Origin: a virus
Lineage: Duplodnaviria; Heunggongvirae; Uroviricota; Caudoviricetes
Strand: one strand, 5' to 3'
Length of the DNA: 12,923 nt
IMG/VR virus record: IMGVR_UViG_3300029079_000072
Span: 1-12,923 of that record
The translations under genes and the position numbers were made by a program. This document shows positions 1-9,061 of the stretch, piece after piece. Numbering within the stretch: the first letter of the stretch is position 1; each line of letters begins with the position of its first letter. The notes beneath the pieces are model-generated. The model saw nothing but the letters and a program-made list of their open reading frames with translations. It ran no database searches and was not told the DNA's origin.

Positions 1-267
1 TTACTCTGCAGGTGAAGTCGGCCACTCAATATCAGGTGCAGTTGATGTATCAACACGATTCAACAATACCCGATATTTATTCCATGCCTCCAGCAACGAT
101 CTTTCTTCCGCCGTTGCGATTTCCAGATCTACAGCATCCTGCAGTGGCGCAATATACTCACTGAATTCCTGGATGTGGAACTGTGTGGTGACGGTCTTCC
201 AGTCATTCGGCTCCTGCTGTATCGAAGCATACCAGGCTATTTCAATATCGCTATGCTGCGGCAGCAT
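1..267 (-). CDS. Short tail fiber assembly-like protein (88 aa, Tfa C-terminal domain only)
   Basis: The C-terminal ~50 aa ([46 protein letters not shown]) is near-identical to the C-terminus of the Tfa at 1047..1631 and to lambda Tfa as I recall it. ATG at 265..267 is preceded by AAGGGG; stop TAA at 1..3. Resembles the short tfaX-type gene of DLP12-like prophages (from memory). Confidence 0.7.
20..163. repeat. Direct repeat copy A (tfa 3' region), about 144 bp, paired with 1069..1212
   Basis: Aligned by eye against 1069..1212: about 16 mismatches in 144 positions, same orientation. Similarity ends abruptly at 163/1212. Confidence 0.75.
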
Positions 268-323: not shown

Positions 324-992
324 ATGGTGAAATCAATGAAAAAAAACACAGATGATGGGGCTAAAATTTACACACCACTTACCCTAAAGCTTTATGACTG
401 GTGGGTTTTGGGAGTATCAAATCGGCTTGCATGGGGATGTCCTACAAAGGAACACCTTCTTCCACACTTTCTGGAACATGTAGGTAACAACCATCTGGAT
501 ATTGGTGTTGGAACTGGGTTTTACCTTACTCACGTACCTGAGAGTAGTCTGATATCTTTAATGGATTTGAACGAAGCTAGCCTGAACGCGGCATCTACAA
601 GGGCTGGGGAATCAAAAATTAAACATAAAATTAGCCATGATGTTTTTGAACCTTATCCCGCGGCGTTACATGGTCAATTTGATTCCATTTCCATGTTTTA
701 CCTTCTTCACTGCCTGCCTGGAAATATATCTACAAAAAGCTGTGTAATACGCAATGCGGCGCAGGCCTTAACTGACGATGGAACTCTATACGGAGCCACA
801 ATTCTTGGCGATGGAGTTGTGCACAATAGCTTCGGTCAAAAACTGATGCGCATTTACAATCAGAAAGGCATCTTTTCAAACACAAAAGATTCCGAAGAAG
901 GCTTAACACATATACTCTCAGAGCATTTCGAGAATGTTAAAACCAAGGTTCAAGGTACTGTAGTAATGTTTTCCGCTTCAGGGAAAAAATAG
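324..992 (+). CDS. Class I SAM-dependent methyltransferase (possibly YbcY-like)
   Basis: 222-aa ORF with a glycine-rich SAM-binding motif I (LDIGVGTGFY) and downstream acidic/hydrophobic motifs typical of Rossmann-fold methyltransferases. Alternative start at ATG 336 is preceded by GGTGA. The gene looks clearly more AT-rich than the flanking phage DNA (by eye, not computed). It lies on the opposite strand between two tfa-type genes, as ybcY does in DLP12 (from memory). Confidence 0.75.
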   Translation: MVKSMKKNTDDGAKIYTPLTLKLYDWWVLGVSNRLAWGCPTKEHLLPHFLEHVGNNHLDIGVGTGFYLTHVPESSLISLMDLNEASLNAASTRAGESKIKHKISHDVFEPYPAALHGQFDSISMFYLLHCLPGNISTKSCVIRNAAQALTDDGTLYGATILGDGVVHNSFGQKLMRIYNQKGIFSNTKDSEEGLTHILSEHFENVKTKVQGTVVMFSASGKK

Positions 993-1046: not shown

Positions 1047-1631
1047 TTACTCCCTGACAGGGTTCGTAGGCCACTCAATATCAGGTGCAGTTGATGTATC
1101 AACACGGTTCAGCAACACCCGATACTTCTTCCAGGCTTCCAGCAATGAGGTTTCTTCCTCCGTTGCAATTTCCAGATCTGCAGCATCCTGAAGCGGCGCA
1201 ATATGCTCACTGGCTACCTGCATCAGGTTGTTTTTTGTTTCTTCCGCCTCCCGGATCCGGAACAGTTTTTCTGCTTCCGTATCCTTCACCCAGGCTGTGC
1301 CGTTCCACTTCTGAAACTCCCCTTCCGGCGATAACCAGGTAACATTTTCCGGTAACGGACCGAGTTCAGAAATAAATAACGCGTCGCCGGAAGCCACGTC
1401 ATAAACCGTTTTACCCCGATGATCTTCAACGAGATGCCACGATGACTCATCACTGTTGAAAACAGCCACGAAGCCAGCCGGAATATCTGGCGGTGCAATA
1501 TCGGTACTGTTTGCTGGCAGACCTGTATGAGGCGGAATATATGCATCACCTTCACCAATAAATTCATTAGTTCCGGACAACAGATTATAAATTTTTATGG
1601 TCCGTGGTTGTTCACTCATTCTGAATGCCAT
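1047..1631 (-). CDS. tfa: Tail fiber assembly protein Tfa (lambda-type, 194 aa)
   Basis: Translation [18 protein letters not shown]...[46 protein letters not shown] matches lambda Tfa almost residue for residue from memory. The ATG overlaps the stf stop (TAATG). Confidence 0.9.
1069..1212. repeat. Direct repeat copy B (tfa 3' region), paired with 20..163
   Basis: See copy A; same orientation, roughly 89% identical by eye. Confidence 0.75.
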
Positions 1632-4600
1632 TATGCAAGCCTCACAATATAGTTAAATGCGATGTTTTTGACGGTGTTTTCCGCGTTACCAGCAGCGTTA
1701 ACGGTGATGGTGTGTCCATGTGAACCAATCGCAACGGAGTGCGTATGAGCACCAATACCGACAGTATGTGCATGTGCACCAGCATTTGCTGCAGTACCAG
1801 ACAGCGAGTGGGTATGAGCACCTGCTGACTGTGTCTGAATACGTTGATAATACGATCTACTGGAAGAAGTCTCCGGGCTTACTTGATACTGTGAATCCTT
1901 GACATAAGTGAACCCACCGCCATCATAAAATGCTAACGCAGAACCGCCGCCTCCCGGCCAACGAATACCATTACCATGAGTATGAGCACCGGCAGACCCC
2001 GTAGAGCCACTCAGACTGTGCGTATGCGACCCGGTGTTATTCGTGGATTTAGTGCCGTAATCAAACGACGATGTGGTTTTCGTCCCCAAATCCGTACTGG
2101 ATGCGCTGGCGCTGTGGGTGTGCGATTTTATGCCGTCCCGTTCCTGAGACAATACGGCCCGGCCACTGGCGGGTTTGCCCTTGATTGTCCAGCCGCGCAT
2201 ATCTGGAATAACACCTGAAGGATAGGCAATAGCCAGTTTCGGATATGCTGCCTTATCAAACGTCTGCCCCTGCATGATTGCATAACCTGCAGGTGGTGTA
2301 TCTGATGGCCACGGCAGCGGAACACCTGGCGGAAACGCTTCAATATTTGCCGAGCCGTCAAATTTTACGCCGTTAATTGTCCTTGCAGTTTGCAATTTGG
2401 TTGCTGTGCTTGCATTACCCGATAAAGATCCAGTGATACCACCACTCGCGTTTAATTTAGTTGCAATTGTAACATTGCCAGTATGGTTACTAATTATAAA
2501 CGGCCTTAAGCTATTGTGCGTACCAAGACTGTTACCCGAATCTGTCAACATAAAATATGTGTTTGATCCATCATTTCGGATAAAGAATCCATAGTTGCCA
2601 TAGGCAATACGCAGACCATTTGCTGACCTTGAAATAACCTCACCAGCAGCAGTTAAACCACCTGAAAGAGTCCCTCCAGTTAATGCCAATGCCCCAATAT
2701 TTGAAGGGGTCAATGTGATATTTGCACTACCATCAAATGACACACCGTTAATCGTTCTGGCTGCCTGAAGTTTCGTGGCGGTCGCAGCATTACCTGTAGT
2801 GTTTTGATTACCGGTAGCGTTGACTCCAGGCAAGTTGATATCTGCCGATCCATCAAATGCCACGCCCCCAATCTTACGTGCTGTCTTGATCTTGGTCGCA
2901 GTATCTGCGTTTCCGGTCAAATTACCAGTAACACTACCACCAACTTTTAGTCCATTACCGATGGACACCAACCCTGATCTTAAGTTTATAGAGAATGGTC
3001 TTAATGAACCGATGTCTCCATTTTCCCCCTCCCCTTCATTAGTCGGAATAAGATGAAGATAATCTTCGGAACGCCTAAAAATAAGGCCAAAGGCTTGGTT
3101 GAATATTCGAAGAGCATTTATCGTGCTGATTTTTAACTGCCCTCCCATTGTGTCGCCAGTTTTTTGAACTGAACTATCTTTAACAGTTTTAACTGCCTTT
3201 GGCGTTGCCGCCAGCTTTTCACTGGTGCTGTTTGTTGCACTGCTGAGCTGTACTATCCCCTTTTTCGTCGTGCTCGCATCCTCAAGCCCCACGGCGGATG
3301 CAATATCCTCTGCCCGTTTTGCCGCTGTTTCGGCACGCGTTGCCGCGGATTCAGCAGCAACTTTGCTCTGAGATGCCGCCGTCGCACTGCCTGCCGCCTC
3401 TGATGCTTTCGTTGTTGCTGTCGTGGCACTACCTTTCGCTGCTGACGCTTGTCTGGTCGCCTCATCTTTTGAAGCAGACGCAGATGATGCCGATGACGCC
3501 GCTGAACTGGCTGACGATGCGGCTGCCGCCTTAGAGGAAGCAGCATTGTCTGCTGAAGTCTTTGCATTTGTTTCAGAGGTTTTTGCTGCAGAAGCAGACC
3601 TCGCTGCTGCAGTGGCTTGCTCAGTGGCTTTGCCAGCCTTCGTTGTGGCTGTTGAAGCGGATGATGCGGCGCTTTCTGCCGATTTTCCGGCGGCGGTGGC
3701 ACTGGCTGAGGCCTGCCCGGCACTTGTTGACGCGGCACTGGCAGATAATGCAGCCGCTGTTTTTGAACCTGCCGCAGCTGAGGCGCTCTGTCCCGCTGCT
3801 GTTTCAGAAGACTTAGCGTTCGTCTCGGACGTTTTTGCCGCCTTCGCGGAATTTCCTGCCGCCGTTGCCGAGGAAGCTGCACTACTGGCACTTGATGATG
3901 CATTCGTTTCTGAAGATTTCGCTGCCTCTTTTGAGGCCGCCGCACCCCGTGCCGAGGTGGCAGCTTCTGACGCTTTCGTGGTCGCTGTGGATGCAGAAGT
4001 GGCTGCCGATTTTTGTGATGCTGCGGCATTCGTTTCTGACGTTTTCGCGGCACTGGCGCTGGTAGCTGCCGCGCTTTTTGATGACTCTGCAGCAGCAGCA
4101 CTTTTTGCTGCTTCACGGGCCTTTGTCGATGCCGTTCCTGCGCTGGAAGACGCTGACTGAGCCGACGACGCGGCCTGTCCGGCTGACGTGCTGGCGGCAC
4201 GTGCTGAGGCTGCAGCATCGGTTGCATGAGTTGCCGCCTCGCTGGCTGATGCACTGGCATCGCTGGCTGATTTTTTCGCGGCTGCCGTATTCTGTGCAAC
4301 CGCGGAGGCGTTACGTGACACCTCTTCCACCATCTGCTCAAAGCGGCGCAGTGCCTCCGGCATGACATCATCTTCCGTCATGGCACCGAGAAAATCATTC
4401 AGCGTACCTGGTCTGGAACCTTCATAGACGGTAATGGTCCCGGCATGTGAAGGCGGAAAACCTTCAACCAGCAGGGTGACGCTGTACTGGCCATGCTCAA
4501 CATCCATGCTGTAACGTCCGGCTTCATCCGGATTTTCAGAGGCCACCGTGTTCACCACCACCGTGCTGCTGGTTCGTCTGGCCTTCAGCACAATGGTGCA

Positions 4601-4657
4601 GTTCTGTACTGGTTTTCCTGTGCCATCTTTAAGCACGCCAGAAATTTTTACTGTCAT
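1631..4657 (-). CDS. stf: Side tail fiber protein Stf (1008 aa)
   Basis: N-terminus [28 protein letters not shown] and C-terminus ...[42 protein letters not shown] match lambdoid Stf proteins such as Rac StfR as recalled. A long Ala/Ser/Thr-rich low-complexity stretch is followed by repeated tail-fibre repeat units ([23 protein letters not shown]) and a His-rich HxH C-terminal region. Confidence 0.9.
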
Positions 4658-4808: not shown

Positions 4809-5408
4809 TCAGAAACGGTATCCGATACCAACAATAAATGCATCCGTTCGCCAGTCGCCACTACCGGAACCTTCATAAGCAAGGTCAATGGTTACGGATT
4901 CGGTCGGGTTAAACTGCACGCCAGCCCCCCACGCCAGAGACGTGTTGCTGTGGCGACCGTCATCACTTCCGGTCAGCACATCGTGCGTTTTCCCCTTGTT
5001 GTCAGTTACGCGGAGATAATCCCCGGAGAAAGTCGACACACGGCTGTAAGCCACACCCACCATCGCATACGCGCTGAACCATTCATTCACGCGTACAGAC
5101 GGCCCCGCCATCACGCTGAACCAGCGGTTACGCACGGAATCTTCATGCCAGCGGGTATCGCTGTAGTGCGTTTTTTGCTCATCCTCAGCATTGGCATAAC
5201 TGAAGGACGTAATCAGCCCCAGCGCGTCCGTAAACTCATAACGGTATTTCACGTTAATCCCGTTCAGATTATCGCTGCCGGGAGCGTTCGTACGGGCATG
5301 AAGATACCCCGCGCTCAGTGTGGACTGATGTTCAGACGCCCATGCAGGCGCACCGGATACGGACAGACAGATGGCTGCGGACAAAATGGCTGCACAAACT
5401 TTACGCAT
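4809..5408 (-). CDS. lom: Lom outer-membrane protein (Ail/Lom family, 199 aa)
   Basis: Translation MRKVCAAILSAAICLSVSGAPAWASEHQSTLSAGYLHA...FIVGIGYRF is nearly identical to lambda Lom as recalled. Signal peptide is present; ATG at 5406..5408 is preceded by GAGAGG. Confidence 0.9.
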   Translation of the reverse strand: MRKVCAAILSAAICLSVSGAPAWASEHQSTLSAGYLHARTNAPGSDNLNGINVKYRYEFTDALGLITSFSYANAEDEQKTHYSDTRWHEDSVRNRWFSVMAGPSVRVNEWFSAYAMVGVAYSRVSTFSGDYLRVTDNKGKTHDVLTGSDDGRHSNTSLAWGAGVQFNPTESVTIDLAYEGSGSGDWRTDAFIVGIGYRF

Positions 5409-5475: not shown

Positions 5476-7857
5476 TCAGCTAATCGTGATGCCTGCAGTG
5501 GCTTTCTTCATCACAACAACCAGCAAATCGCTGATACTTGCTGTGGGATACCAGCCATTTACCCACCATGCTGATACAGAAAACTCCAGCGTCATGTGGC
5601 CGCGACCAGCAGGCATATCAATAACACCACTGTAAACCAGCGTATTATCCAGCGCGGTACGGTTATAAATTTCAGCACCGTTTTTCCGTACTATCAGGCG
5701 GCATGACGAATAAATATCGTTATTCTCCCGCTCATGTCTGGCACCGCTGAATGCCACCGCCGGAATAACAATTTGCCGGTCAAACGGCTGATCGTCATAA
5801 ACCCTGACGGTAATGGTCCCTGATGGCCACCTCTCCGGTGCACGGGAGTCACGGGGGAAAGCCTTACCCACTGTTTTAACGAGATCGCCTTCAATCTGGT
5901 TTGCAGACAGTTTCCCTCTGATGACACAGTTCTCGTTAATGGTGACATTATTGAGCGTGCCGGTATTCGCCGTGATGGCTCCACTGATATCCGCATTGCG
6001 GGCTGTCAGCCTGCCATCCGGCGTCAGGGAAAACGTAGGAGGATTGCCGGATGACGTGATGCTCACCGCAAACAGTCGCTTCAGGAACACGTCGTTCATG
6101 AACAGCTGATTCCCCTGCGCCACAAACAGCGGCGTGGTGTTGCCATTCTCCGGGGTAATCATCGCGATACGGTCCGCCTGCAGCAGAATACTGCTCAGCG
6201 TCTGACCATCAACATCCTCAATCCCCGCACCAATCCCGGCCACATAGGGAATACCGTTTTTTGTTTTCTGCACCTTCAGCATATACATGGCATTCAGCTC
6301 ATTGCGCGTGTCTGACTGAACCCGCTGGATTTGCTGTATGGTCACGGCCTGGTCACCCAGTTTTTTATCCGTGGTCGAGGTAATTTCACTCCCTTTTTTA
6401 TCCACGTACTGGCGGACCTGTGCTATCTGTCGGGCATTTTCTGACTGCCCCTGGCTGACAGTCTGTGAGATTTCACTGCTCACCCGGTCCACTTTCTGGC
6501 TCACCTGCGCGATGGCCAGTGTCTGGTCCTCATTCTTTTTCGCAACCAGCTGCGTGAGGCTGTTTTCCGCCTCCCCGATTTTCCGGGTCACTTCTGCGAT
6601 ATCCGTGTCCATCCGCTGACGGATGTCTTCTTCCAGTTGCGTGACCTCCGTACGCAGCGCTGAAGCATCAATGCGCTCTTTCAGTGCCTGGCCCAGAAGC
6701 GTCTCATCTATCAGCCCCCGGAAAATTTCCAGATACCCTTCACCATCATTGCTGGGCTGCCCGCTGGCTTCCACAAAAGCAGATTTTCCCACCAGGTTGA
6801 CGCTTCGCACGTAAAACCAGAAATCCGTCCCCGGCTTAATCCGGCTCCCCTGGACAGTCCACTGACTGCCGGTCCCCAGATAACGGGCAGATTTTTCCAC
6901 CTGTGCCGTGTTCGTGATGCGTTTTTCTGAGAACCAGAATTCAAACTGTACCGTCGGGTCATACACCGCAAGACGCGGGACCGCCGTTATCTGAAAATAC
7001 CCCGGCGTCAGCTCAATGGTGGCGGGTTTTGCAGGCGCGTTAATCCGGAAGGTGGTGGTCGCAGGTTCGCCCTGCTGGCCGTAGCTGTTAATGGCCCGCA
7101 CCGTCAGGGTGTATTCCCCCAGTGGCAGGCCGCTGAAACGGTGCTCCGTGTCTGCGGTGATGGCGGTGGTCACCAGTCTGGCATCCGTTCCCTTACCACT
7201 GGTCAGGCGCAGACTGAAGCGCACGCCCTTCACCACCCGCGGCGTGTCCCATTTAGCCTGCGCCAGATACTGGCCGTCAGCTGCGCTCACCTCCACCGTC
7301 AGGTGCTGCACTGCCGGTGGGATAACGCTGTTCAGGGTGCCTGACTGCGGCTCAAAGCGGGCCCCGTTATCCACGATGGCTTCTTTTTCAGGTACGTGCT
7401 GCACCGCCGTGATGGCAAAGGTGCCGTCCGTGTTTTCCCGGATGGAGACACAGCGGAACAGGCGACGACGCAGTGACGGCAGGGAGAGTCCCCACACACC
7501 GTATGTCTCCACACCATCCGGCAGGGTGCTGACCTGTATCCGGTCAGGCGCGGGGTGTGCGGTGATGGCCACGCTCGCCGGCTTACCGCTGCCGTTAATC
7601 AGATTAACAGTGGCCGTGCCGGTCTCCGGCAGTGTCACCTCCCGGTCCAGCGTCAGGGTACGGCTGGCGGCATCGATGGACAGGACACGTCCGCCGGTCA
7701 TGGTCCCGGCATAGTCGTTATCACAGATTTCAATGATGTCACCGGGTGTGTGACGCAGCCCCTGTGACCCGAGCGTGAAATCCACCGTCTGCGTTTCCAG
7801 CAGTTCGGTCTTTATCACCCACAGCCCGGCACGGTGGGCCTGACCGCGGCTGGTACA
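5476..7857 (-). pseudogene. J: Tail tip / host specificity protein J, N-terminally truncated remnant (C-terminal ~790 codons)
   Basis: Translation from the in-frame stretch [27 protein letters not shown]...[11 protein letters not shown]... parallels the lambda J region starting around [25 protein letters not shown] (from memory). The frame is closed by TGA at 7858..7860 exactly where J homology should continue upstream. There is no ATG start; the track's start is a GTG that is an internal Val codon. Confidence 0.85.
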
Positions 7858-7924
7858 TCAGGGGCTGTAATGCTGTTGTGACAGCACTCATCATATTATT
7901 CAGTTGTTGCTCTGATATATTCAT
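7856..7924 (-). pseudogene. Terminase large subunit (gpA-like) 5' fragment, about 23 codons
   Basis: ATG at 7922..7924 overlaps the 3' end of the Nu1 gene and encodes MNISEQQLNNMM..., resembling the lambda gpA start MNISNSQVNRL. The frame then runs out of frame into J sequence, so only the first ~20-25 codons look native. Confidence 0.5.
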
Positions 7925-8405
7925 CGAGTAAATCCGGTAATTTATCCCCCGCCCGCGCACACTGATTTGCCCCCTTCGCAATAAGGGTTTTCAGATGGTC
8001 AAGATGGCGCGGTGTTAAATCAGGAAACTGTCGCTGCATGGATAAAGGGATGGAATCAAGCGTACTGGATAACGCCATTGCCAGCTTGCTGAGGGCAAAA
8101 ATACAGAACCCGGTATCAATAAGTTTTCCTTTTGACACCTCATTTTTTAACTGCTGTGTAACAGCCTGTTCTGCTGTCAGTTCCCATCTGGCAATAAGCA
8201 ATTTCTCCTCATAGTCGTCTTCGCTATCGCCATCAGGCACATCGTTTTTACTTCTTCTCAGATACGATATGTAAAAATCGCGCCAGGCATCCAGATCCAG
8301 TTGCCCTCGCTTATTCGATATCGGGGCACCCGGCAATTTCTGCAATCTGCGAAGCTGGCGATCGGTCAGACTTAAATGCCTGGCAACTTCAGTCTGCGTA
8401 GCCAC
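7896..8405 (-). CDS. nu1: Terminase small subunit (Nu1-like, 169 aa)
   Basis: The C-terminal half (...GFCIFALSKLAMALSSTLDSIPLSMQRQFPDLTPRHLDHLKTLIAKGAN...LPDLLDEYI) parallels lambda Nu1 (...AFCTFVLSRIAGEIASILDGLPLSVQRRFPELENRHVDFLKRDII...LLSEYI) from memory. It lies directly beside the cos site. Start is GTG at 8403..8405 preceded by AGGTGAGGA, with an in-frame stop just upstream. Confidence 0.85.
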   Translation of the reverse strand: MATQTEVARHLSLTDRQLRRLQKLPGAPISNKRGQLDLDAWRDFYISYLRRSKNDVPDGDSEDDYEEKLLIARWELTAEQAVTQQLKNEVSKGKLIDTGFCIFALSKLAMALSSTLDSIPLSMQRQFPDLTPRHLDHLKTLIAKGANQCARAGDKLPDLLDEYIRATTE

Positions 8406-8442
8406 TCCTCACCTCGCAAAAACTCTCACTTCACAATCACAA

Positions 8443-8640
8443 CAAAACCGGTCATGTCCGGCTTACATGTCTATTTTTTGTGCATGTCCGGTTCACAGAA
8501 GACCTCTTTTTTTATTTTTCATATAGTTAACTTGAAGAGAAACCGGACATGGTTCCCGGAAAATTTTCATAAATAGCGAAAACCCGCGAGGTCGCCGCCC
8601 CGTAACCTGTTGGATCGACGGAAAGGACCCGAAAACGAGA
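8443..8640. other. cos site (cosQ-cosN-cosB) of a lambda-type phage
   Basis: The reverse complement of 8561..8602 reads GGGGCGGCGACCTCGCGGGTTTTCGCTATTTATGAAAATTTT, matching the lambda left end, and the adjacent sequence GGGTCCTTTCCG...ACAGGTTACG resembles the lambda right-end/cosQ region (from memory). Between cosN and Nu1 are three copies of the 9-mer CATGTCCGG (8453..8461, 8483..8491, and inverted at 8543..8551) separated by an AT-rich tract, consistent with R1/R2/R3 TerS-binding sites flanking a bend site. Confidence 0.8.
8589..8600 (-). other. cosN cohesive-end sequence (12 nt, GGGCGGCGACCT on the minus strand)
   Basis: Exact match to the lambda 12-nt 5' cohesive end as recalled; plus strand reads AGGTCGCCGCCC. 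Confidence 0.8.
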
Positions 8641-8748
8641 ATAATTATCACTTACAGCAAGAATCGAATCTGATCTATTATGGTGCTTGCTATTATGTGC
8701 CGGCACAAGTGCGTCGTTTACCGTCATTTCACACAGAGGCATCATCAA

Positions 8749-9000
8749 ATGAAAATCAGAAATATTCTCGCTATCTCCCTTGCAACATCATCCTTCAGTT
8801 GCCTGGCATTTAAATCCTCGCCCAATGTGCTACCAGGACCAACGAATCAACTAACTGCGGTAGAAAGTAAAATTATCGGACATTTTTATGCCCCACACAG
8901 TGCATTACCCGGAACAACCATCACAGGGACATGTGACGCCTCCCCCGTCCCGGGATGCACCTGTCCGTTTTGTACTATGCTGCGTAGCCAAAACCGATAA
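8749..9000 (+). CDS. Small secreted protein (83 aa) with signal peptide and C-terminal Cys motif; function unknown
   Basis: ATG at 8749 is preceded by AGAGG at a 9-nt spacing. The N-terminus MKIRNILAISLATSSFSCLA is signal-peptide-like and the C-terminus carries C-x8-C-x-C-x2-C (CDASPVPGCTCPFC). It is transcribed opposite to the late operon, like lambda bor. Confidence 0.5.
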   Translation: MKIRNILAISLATSSFSCLAFKSSPNVLPGPTNQLTAVESKIIGHFYAPHSALPGTTITGTCDASPVPGCTCPFCTMLRSQNR

Positions 9001-9061
9001 CATCCGCATTTACCTGGTATTACATGATGAGTTCACGCAGCGACTGATAGAGGAAGGAAAG

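What the first reader, a model, noticed from the sequence alone, without database searches (positions are those of the whole stretch)
7856..7925. Deletion scar: Nu1 and the first ~23 codons of terminase large subunit joined to the middle of tail gene J
The J reading frame is open only from 7857 and is closed by TGA at the point where homology to lambda J should continue upstream. The gpA-like start (MNISEQQ...) is in a different frame and decays after about 23 codons. By comparison with lambda's gene order, roughly the interval from gene A through the first third of J (on the order of 13 kb in lambda) is missing, so the prophage cannot build particles on its own. The breakpoint is resolvable to within a few base pairs.
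Basis: partly seen in the sequence, partly recalled or inferred. Interest (0 to 1): 0.5.

Follow-up and report, generated by a model that had tools for sequence, protein, structure and literature searches.

The report
Deletion scar in a defective lambdoid prophage
A lambda-like prophage of E. coli has lost a 16.5-kb block holding nearly all its head and tail genes, leaving the start of the terminase gene fused out of frame to the middle of tail gene J; this is ordinary prophage decay of a well-known kind.

Summary
Genes run on the minus strand: cosN (8600-8589), an intact Nu1 gene (8405-7896), then 22 codons plus 2 nt of the terminase large-subunit gene A (7924-7856). These are joined directly to codon 438 of tail-tip gene J (7857-5476), followed by lom, stf and tfa. 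Homology to intact prophages switches from A to J at one ambiguous T (7857). The J frame is closed just upstream by TGA (7860-7858), and A' runs out of frame into J. The closest intact relative is E. coli O15:H18 strain ST69, same site next to potB, with flanks 100% and 99.97% identical. It carries 16,517 bp between the two points: A, W, B, C, D, E, FI, FII, Z, U, V, G, T, H, M, L, K, I and the first 437 codons of J. The scar is real: it also occurs in the complete genome of strain DP051, where RefSeq annotates two pseudogenes, and in one metagenome contig. It is rare (1 of 5,426 complete E. coli genomes) and absent from phage collections. There is no IS, no filler and no microhomology beyond chance. 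K-12 cryptic prophages DLP12 and Qin have analogous scars. Low interest.

The parts
8589..8600 (-). cosN cohesive-end sequence GGGCGGCGACCT, with lambda-like flanks. The packaging site is retained.
   Evidence: Exact 12-nt match. The sequence context was read. That the flanking bases are those of the lambda left end rests on my own knowledge of the lambda sequence.
7896..8405 (-). Intact terminase small-subunit gene Nu1 (169 aa)
   Evidence: Pfam PF07471 Phage_Nu1, E=1e-18. The protein is WP_000235436.1, the same accession as in the intact prophages of ATCC 25922 and strain ST69.
7856..7924 (-). A': the first 22 codons plus 2 nt of the terminase large-subunit gene. Codon 23 is ATA in intact copies and ATG here.
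   Evidence: Identical to intact A up to window 7857. PGAP annotates it as a pseudogene, 'missing C-terminus', at the same coordinates in DP051.
7857..7857 (-). Breakpoint: one T that could derive from either parent sequence (1-nt microhomology)
   Evidence: 44% of random junction pairs in the intact prophage share at least 1 nt.
7739..7924 (-). Out-of-frame fusion ORF: A' followed by 39 nonsense codons read from the wrong frame of J (61 aa plus stop)
   Evidence: Translation (ORF 7739..7981). Frame arithmetic.
7858..7860 (-). TGA that closes the J reading frame immediately upstream of the junction. It is made of A-derived bases.
   Evidence: Sequence read. Alignment.
5476..7857 (-). J': the 3' two-thirds of the tail-tip attachment gene J (793 codons, equivalent to lambda J residues 438-1132). 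It lacks its own start.
   Evidence: BLASTP to lambda J starts at residue 438. Pfam finds Ig_J, Ig_J_second, Phage_Tail_Tip and Ig_GpJ_C, but only positions 105-162 of Phage-tail_3 and no FNIII-A_GpJ. PGAP annotates it as a pseudogene, 'missing N-terminus'.
4809..5408 (-). Intact lom (Ail/Lom outer-membrane protein) downstream of J'
   Evidence: Pfam PF06316, E=6e-126. Same accession, WP_001233154.1, as in the intact prophages.
1631..4657 (-). Intact side tail fibre gene stf (1008 aa)
   Evidence: Pfam phage_tail_N, Gp34_trimer and Collar. Same accession as in strain ST69.
1047..1631 (-). Intact tail fibre assembly gene tfa (194 aa)
   Evidence: Pfam Caudo_TAP, E=2e-44.
11653..11654 (-). Second, independent deletion junction in the same prophage. 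6,017 bp present in DP051 are missing here, running from the 3' end of the DUF968 gene through rusA, Q, a DNA methyltransferase, three tRNAs and the holin gene. The junction has a 2-nt overlap (CC).
   Evidence: Gene content from the DP051 annotation. The junction is shared by metagenome contig OGQY01001628.1.

Best explanation
This is the scar of a single internal deletion of about 16.5 kb in a lambdoid prophage integrated next to potB.

The deletion removed everything from codon 23 of terminase large-subunit gene A to codon 437 of tail-tip gene J. Lost genes are A, W, portal B, protease/scaffold C, D, major capsid E, FI, FII, Z, U, V, G, T, tape measure H, M, L, K, I and the 5' 35% of J. The ends were joined directly, out of frame.

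The joint has one ambiguous base, no inserted DNA and no IS element. The event was therefore most likely illegitimate, homology-independent recombination, such as repair of a break or a replication or topoisomerase error. This step is inferred.

The consequence follows from gene content. The element keeps cos, Nu1, the receptor-binding part of J, lom, stf and tfa. It has no terminase ATPase/nuclease, portal, capsid, tail tube or tail tip, so it cannot package DNA or build particles by itself.

In the window's own lineage a second, 6-kb deletion also removed the late antiterminator Q and the holin. Late-gene expression and lysis are therefore disabled as well. The remaining pieces probably matter only in two ways (inferred): as retained cargo (lom, a TonB-family gene, a methyltransferase) and as homologous DNA that infecting lambdoid phages can recombine with.
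For: - The homology switch occurs at one base.
- Strain ST69 (NZ_CP102488.1) has the undeleted prophage at the same site. Window 1-7857 matches it at 99.975% and window 7857-11654 at 100%, with 16,517 bp in between carrying 18 complete morphogenesis genes plus the missing 3' part of A and the first 437 codons of J. ATCC 25922 gives 16,518 bp.
- J' aligns from lambda J residue 438, and the Phage-tail_3 domain is cut mid-profile.
- The intact A homologue has the GpA_ATPase and GpA_nuclease domains, which the 23-codon remnant lacks.
- The junction appears in three independent sequences: the window, the complete DP051 genome (where PGAP annotates both fragments as pseudogenes) and metagenome contig OGQY01001628.1.
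- Microhomology is 1 nt, and 44% of random junction pairs reach that. The longest shared direct word within +/-100 nt is 6 nt, no longer than any of 200 shuffles gave (they ranged 6-10 nt).
- Recombination of lambda and phi80 with K-12 defective prophages at Nu1/A and stf/tfa homologies has been shown experimentally (PMC3945230, read).
Against: - The molecular mechanism of the deletion cannot be read from a 1-nt joint. 'Illegitimate recombination' is a default, not a demonstrated pathway.
- Nothing here shows expression of Nu1, of the 61-aa fusion peptide or of a J C-terminal fragment. A GTG at 7818 could in principle start a 780-aa product.
- The early regions of the DP051 and ST69 prophages are mosaic (88-98% identity). 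ST69 is therefore a close relative of the ancestor, not the ancestor itself.
Confidence: 0.95

Rival explanations
1. Assembly artefact: the contig was mis-joined or collapsed between two prophage regions, and the real genome has the full A-to-J block.
For: J and Nu1/A sequences are multi-copy in E. coli (median 2 and up to 14-17 places per genome). Draft assemblies often break inside J, as shown by contig-edge J fragments.
Against: The identical 91-nt junction occurs in a closed, complete chromosome (DP051) and in an independent metagenome contig that differs from the window at 6 other positions. DP051 has only one place matching the junction query.
Confidence: 0.01
2. Native arrangement: a functional small element, such as a cos-bearing phage satellite or a fusion gene, that never had the morphogenesis block.
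For: cos, Nu1, int and xis are retained. K-12 DLP12 and Qin show a similar Nu1-next-to-tail-fibre layout, so the pattern recurs.
Against: - Both flanks are 99.97-100% identical to a full-length prophage at the same site.
- A' and J' are out of frame, and a Pfam domain is cut mid-profile.
- The junction query was fully covered in no phage record and an exact junction 38-mer found nothing in IMG/VR or GTDB representatives.
- Only 1 of 5,426 complete genomes has the junction.
Confidence: 0.02
3. Recombination between two different lambdoid prophages or with an incoming phage, rather than a simple intra-prophage deletion. The A side and the J side would come from different elements.
For: Lambdoid prophages are mosaic. 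The early region of this prophage differs from ST69's. Phages do recombine with defective prophages (PMC3945230).
Against: - A and J share no homology at the joint (1 nt), so homologous exchange cannot have made it.
- Both sides match one and the same prophage in ST69, FCI48 and others at 99.9% identity or more, with the same chromosomal flanks.
Confidence: 0.02
4. The deletion was made by a specific mechanism: slippage mediated by microhomology or direct repeats, or IS-mediated adjacent deletion.
For: There is a 1-nt overlap at the joint and a 2-nt overlap at the second joint.
Against: Overlaps of 1 nt or more occur in 44% of random junction pairs, and of 2 nt or more in about 16%. There is no repeat above the shuffle expectation within +/-100 nt. 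There is no IS sequence or filler at the joint.
Confidence: 0.05

Closest known systems
Cryptic prophage DLP12 of E. coli K-12: the nohD - aaaD' - tfaD junction
   Same: An intact Nu1 homologue (NohD) is followed by a 5' fragment of terminase gene A (pseudogene aaaD), fused directly to a late tail gene. All head and tail-shaft genes are missing. Lysis genes and cos lie upstream. DLP12 also has the same tfa - methyltransferase (opposite strand) - tfa-fragment cassette at the right end.
   Different: DLP12 keeps about 130 codons of A and joins them to tfa at about residue 50, so J, lom and stf are also gone. Here 22 codons of A are joined to J codon 438, and lom, stf and tfa are intact. The Nu1 allele also differs: DLP12's is 98% identical to lambda Nu1, while this one is about 43% identical to it over the region that aligns.
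Cryptic prophage Qin of E. coli K-12: the nohA - stfQ' junction
   Same: A Nu1 homologue abuts a truncated tail-fibre gene, with the whole morphogenesis block deleted.
   Different: In Qin the breakpoint lies inside Nu1 (residues 1-176 of 181 are retained) and inside stf (from about residue 70 of lambda orf-314). No A or J remnant is left.
Defective lambdoid prophages of E. coli O157 Sakai (Sp series)
   Same: These are lambdoid prophages that carry deletions, frameshifts or IS insertions in morphogenesis and packaging genes but keep int, xis and cargo genes. Some are still excised and transferred with help from co-resident prophages (PMC2669165).
   Different: The Sakai defects are mostly smaller lesions or IS insertions, for example nu1 disrupted by an IS in Sp4. 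Here one clean 16.5-kb deletion removes the whole block, and no mobility data exist.
Intact prophage at the potB site in E. coli O15:H18 ST69, FCI48 and ATCC 25922, and the inducible PhiR12 phages
   Same: Nu1, lysis, lom, stf, tfa, int and xis proteins are identical. DNA flanks are 99.4-100% identical. The PhiR12 phages share the Nu1-A joint region at 99.7%.
   Different: They contain the 16.5 kb from A to J that this element lacks.

Membership tests
Lambda-type terminase small subunit (Nu1) | Full-length match to Pfam Phage_Nu1 and an intact ORF located just downstream of cos | tested here: met
   PF07471 at 67.9 bits against a cut-off of 30. The 169-aa ORF is identical in accession to that of intact prophages. 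cosN lies 184 nt upstream.
Lambda-type terminase large subunit (gpA) | GpA_ATPase (PF05876) and GpA_nuclease (PF20454) domains in one ORF of about 640 aa | tested here: not met
   Only 22 codons plus 2 nt of A remain (7924-7856). The intact homologue has both domains, at residues 48-293 and 323-601.
Tip attachment protein J | N-terminal FNIII-A_GpJ domain and a complete Phage-tail_3 domain, the parts that build the tail tip | tested here: not met
   FNIII-A_GpJ is absent. Phage-tail_3 is matched only from profile position 105 of 164. Alignment to lambda J begins at residue 438.
Tip attachment protein J | C-terminal Ig_J, Ig_J_second, Phage_Tail_Tip and receptor-binding Ig_GpJ_C domains | tested here: met
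   All four are found above their cut-offs in the 793-codon J' frame.
Internal deletion in a prophage (defective or cryptic prophage) | Both flanks are collinear with one intact relative at the same chromosomal site, with extra DNA between them in the relative | tested here: met
   In ST69, flanks are 99.975% and 100% identical and 16,517 bp lie between them. The potA-potB flank is the same and int and xis are identical.
Internal deletion in a prophage (defective or cryptic prophage) | The junction is reproducible in independent assemblies | tested here: met
   The 91-nt junction is identical in the DP051 complete genome and in metagenome contig OGQY01001628.1.
Short-homology-dependent (microhomology-mediated) deletion | Several bases of identity shared by both parental sequences at the joint, more than chance gives | tested here: not met
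   1 nt is shared. 44% of 100,000 random junction pairs reach 1 nt or more.
IS-mediated adjacent deletion | An IS element or its end at the junction | tested here: not met
   A-derived and J-derived bases abut directly with no extra DNA. No transposase is annotated nearby in DP051.
cos-type phage satellite (PICI-like) | An autonomous small element with its own replication and interference genes that is packaged by a helper phage | not tested
   Only cos, Nu1, int and xis retention was seen. Near-identity to a full prophage argues for a derived remnant. Mobilisation cannot be tested with these tools.

The most novel reading that the evidence does not exclude
The layout 'cos - Nu1 - stub of A fused to a distal tail or host-range gene' has now arisen independently at least three times in E. 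coli: DLP12, Qin and this element. This could reflect selection rather than chance. One possibility is selection for remnants that can no longer kill the host but keep cos and Nu1 for helper-phage packaging. Another is retention of host-range modules (J C-terminus, stf, tfa) as a recombination reservoir. A third is a deletion-prone zone at the Nu1/A boundary.
Probability: 0.08. Interest if true: 0.4.

Novelty: new member of a known kind. Interest (0 to 1): 0.1.

Why it matters
It matters little beyond annotation. The region should be labelled as a defective prophage with two pseudogenes (A' and J'), not as a terminase or tail gene. The strain cannot release this phage without help.

It is a clean, base-resolved and evidently recent example of stepwise prophage decay. 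First came a 16.5-kb loss of morphogenesis genes, seen alone in DP051. Then came a 6-kb loss of Q, the tRNAs and the holin, seen together with the first loss in the window and in one metagenome contig. The undeleted ancestor-like form is still circulating.

The retained cos/Nu1 and J-C-terminus/stf/tfa segments are the kind of homology through which infecting lambdoid phages have been shown to pick up DNA from defective prophages (PMC3945230).

Tried and rejected
- I looked up exact-protein matches for products unique to the scar: the 780-aa GTG-started J', the 61-aa A'-J fusion peptide and a 741-aa ATG-started J'. The aim was to count scar-bearing assemblies. The first two are not on record. 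The third only found short draft contigs that end inside J before reaching the junction, so they say nothing about the scar.
- I scanned GTDB species representatives and IMG/VR for the junction 38-mer and found nothing.
- I searched for direct or inverted repeats around both parental breakpoints. Nothing exceeded the shuffle expectation. An 8-nt inverted word, AGCCCCTG, is within the chance range.
- I considered that the window is strain DP051 itself. This is rejected because the window lacks 6,017 bp that DP051 has.
- The Rfam scan gave only an IS009 hit inside tfa, unrelated to the junction.
DNA-level comparison answered the question.
Full report
**What is in the sequence.** The genes around the finding run on the minus strand. 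In gene direction the order is:
- an exact lambda cosN 12-mer, GGGCGGCGACCT, at 8600-8589 (context);
- an intact 169-aa Nu1 gene at 8405-7896 (Pfam Phage_Nu1, E=1e-18);
- an ATG at 7924, overlapping the end of Nu1, that opens MNISEQQLNNMMSAVTTALQPL;
- a long open frame from 7857 down to 5476 that carries the C-terminal domains of tip attachment protein J (Ig_J, Ig_J_second, Phage_Tail_Tip, Ig_GpJ_C);
- intact lom (5408-4809), stf (4657-1631) and tfa (1631-1047).

The A-like ATG is at 7924, not 7925.

**Where homology switches.** I ran megablast of window 8150-7600 against 5,426 complete E. coli genomes and 50,697 phage records. The hits fall into two classes that meet at one base. 'Terminase small subunit | terminase large subunit' hits cover window 8150-7857. 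'Tail tip protein J' hits cover 7857-7600.

Base-by-base comparison with two intact prophages shows A-side identity ending at ...CAGCCCCTGAT. Intact copies continue AAGGGC. J-side identity begins at TGTACCAGCCGCGG, which in intact copies is preceded by ...TTCGGC. The T at 7857 is the only base that could come from either parent.

The A' frame is offset by one base. It reads through 39 nonsense codons to a stop at 7741-7739.

**What is missing.** E. coli O15:H18 strain ST69 (NZ_CP102488.1) carries the same prophage next to potA-potB. Its integrase, excisionase, Nu1, Lom, Stf, Tfa and methyltransferase proteins are identical to those annotated in DP051.
- Window 1-7857 matches it at 99.975%. The only difference is a one-base indel plus an adjacent mismatch at a C-run in J, which RefSeq flags as a frameshift in ST69.
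- Window 7857-11654 matches it at 100%.
- Between the two matches ST69 has 16,517 bp. ATCC 25922 has 16,518 bp.

That block encodes the rest of A, then W, portal B, the S49 protease C, D, major capsid protein E, FI, FII, Z, U, V, G, T, tape measure H, M, L, K, I and the first 437 codons of a 1,230-codon J.

The first J' residue aligns with Cys438 of lambda J. The intact A homologue is 66% identical to lambda gpA. In lambda coordinates the equivalent interval is about 779-16815, roughly 16.0 kb. 'The first third of J' is fair, at 35.5%.

Pfam shows the cut directly. Intact J matches Phage-tail_3 over profile positions 2-162 and has an FNIII-A_GpJ domain. J' matches Phage-tail_3 only from position 105 and lacks FNIII-A_GpJ.

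**Is it real, and how common?**
- Only one complete genome spans the junction: strain DP051 (NZ_CP156034.1, human faeces, Netherlands). There PGAP already annotates a 69-nt pseudogene 'missing C-terminus' and a 2,382-nt 'phage tail tip protein, missing N-terminus' at the same coordinates.
- The window is not DP051. It lacks 6,017 bp that DP051 has.
- An exact-match scan of metagenome contigs found the junction once, in OGQY01001628.1. That contig differs from the window at six positions, extends into potB-potA, and shares the window's second deletion.
- Three independent sequences therefore carry the joint, so it is not an assembly artefact.
- No phage record covers the junction query, and an exact junction 38-mer is absent from IMG/VR contigs and GTDB species representatives.
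- Undeleted versions are common. 398 records match the Nu1 side at 99% or more, and 91 match the J-lom side at 99% or more. Inducible PhiR12 phages share the Nu1-A joint region at 99.7%.

**Mechanism of the deletion.** The joint has no filler DNA and no IS. Shared identity is 1 nt. In 100,000 random pairs of positions in the intact prophage, 44% share at least 1 nt. The longest direct word shared within +/-100 nt of the two breakpoints is 6 nt, no longer than any of 200 shuffles gave (they ranged 6-10 nt). An 8-nt inverted word is within the chance range.

The sequence therefore gives no support for a homology- or microhomology-driven event or an IS-mediated one. Homology-independent illegitimate recombination is the default inference, not a demonstrated pathway.

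**Consequences.** It follows from gene content that the element has no terminase catalytic subunit, portal, capsid, tail tube, tape measure or tail-tip base. It cannot package DNA or build virions by itself.

In DP051 the rest of the prophage (int, xis, regulators, replication genes, Q, lysis genes) is still annotated. The window's lineage has a second scar at 11653/11654 with a 2-nt overlap (CC). It removes the 3' end of the DUF968 gene, rusA, antiterminator Q, a DNA methyltransferase, three tRNA genes and the holin gene. DP051 has only the first scar, while the window and the metagenome contig have both. The simplest order is the A-to-J deletion first and the Q-holin deletion second (inference).

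What remains is cargo (lom, a TonB-family gene, a SAM methyltransferase) and segments homologous to live lambdoid phages. Lambda and phi80 have been shown to recombine with K-12 defective prophages at exactly such Nu1/A and stf/tfa homologies (PMC3945230). Defective lambdoid prophages of O157 Sakai can be excised and transferred with help from co-resident prophages (PMC2669165). Neither activity was tested for this element.

**Comparison with what is known.** I checked the K-12 annotation and aligned lambda proteins to it.
- DLP12 has NohD (lambda Nu1 residues 1-181), then the aaaD pseudogene (lambda A residues 1 to about 132), fused to tfaD (lambda Tfa from residue 50).
- Qin has NohA (Nu1 residues 1-176) fused to stfQ (lambda orf-314 from about residue 70).

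These are the same kind of scar with different endpoints. The present case is a new instance of a textbook phenomenon, not a new kind of thing.

The recurrence of 'cos-Nu1 joined to a distal tail gene' in three independent elements is mildly suggestive of selection or a hotspot. However, the endpoints differ in all three, and the morphogenesis block is simply the largest dispensable target. I give that reading a low probability.

**Verdict.** The finding is ordinary prophage decay, already visible in RefSeq annotation of a sister strain. Interest is low.

Noticed in passing
window 11653-11654: A second deletion junction in the same prophage. Relative to strain DP051, 6,017 bp are missing: the 3' end of the DUF968 gene, rusA, Q, a DNA methyltransferase, 3 tRNAs and the holin gene. 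The joint has a 2-nt overlap (CC). The truncated DUF968 frame now reads into sequence upstream of the lysozyme gene (ORF 11550-12269, minus strand). Metagenome contig OGQY01001628.1 shares this junction; DP051 does not.
   Followed up: yes
window 8589-8600 (minus strand), with 8405-8590: An exact lambda cosN 12-mer with lambda-like flanking bases. Between it and Nu1 lie several CCGGACAT / ATGTCCGG words that look like cosB R-sites for this Nu1 type. The packaging site is retained although the terminase large subunit is gone.
   Followed up: partly
window 17-163 and 1066-1212; gene at 324-992 (+): Two 147-nt copies of the 3' end of tfa, 88% identical, flank an oppositely oriented class I SAM-dependent methyltransferase gene. 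K-12 DLP12 has the same tfa - methyltransferase - tfa-fragment cassette (tfaD - ybcY' - tfaX).
   Followed up: partly
window 1090-1288 (minus strand): Rfam IS009 (RF02111), 225 bits against a gathering score of 117, full length, lying inside the tfa coding sequence.
   Followed up: no
window 9364-9690 (minus strand): A TonB-family protein gene (WP_000830178.1 in DP051) sits between the lysis genes and cos. Lambda-like phages often carry cargo genes such as bor at this position.
   Followed up: no
window about 3300-4300 (minus strand; stf residues about 120-470): The side tail fibre has a region of about 350 residues that is extremely rich in Ala, Ser and Thr and looks repetitive (ASSA.., KTSETNA.. 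motifs).
   Followed up: no
L003 9242-9300 (strain ST69), corresponding to window 6841-6900: The only difference between the window and ST69 across 7.8 kb is a one-base indel plus an adjacent mismatch at a C-run in J. It makes ST69's otherwise full-length J 'frameshifted' in RefSeq. It could be a homopolymer sequencing error or a real inactivating mutation in the 'intact' relative.
   Followed up: no
L001 1-15000 versus L002 and L003: The early regions (immunity, replication, nin-like) of the DP051, ATCC 25922 and ST69 prophages are mosaic, with 88-98% identity in patches and different replication genes. The late region from the holin to tfa is 98.7-100% identical.
   Followed up: partly
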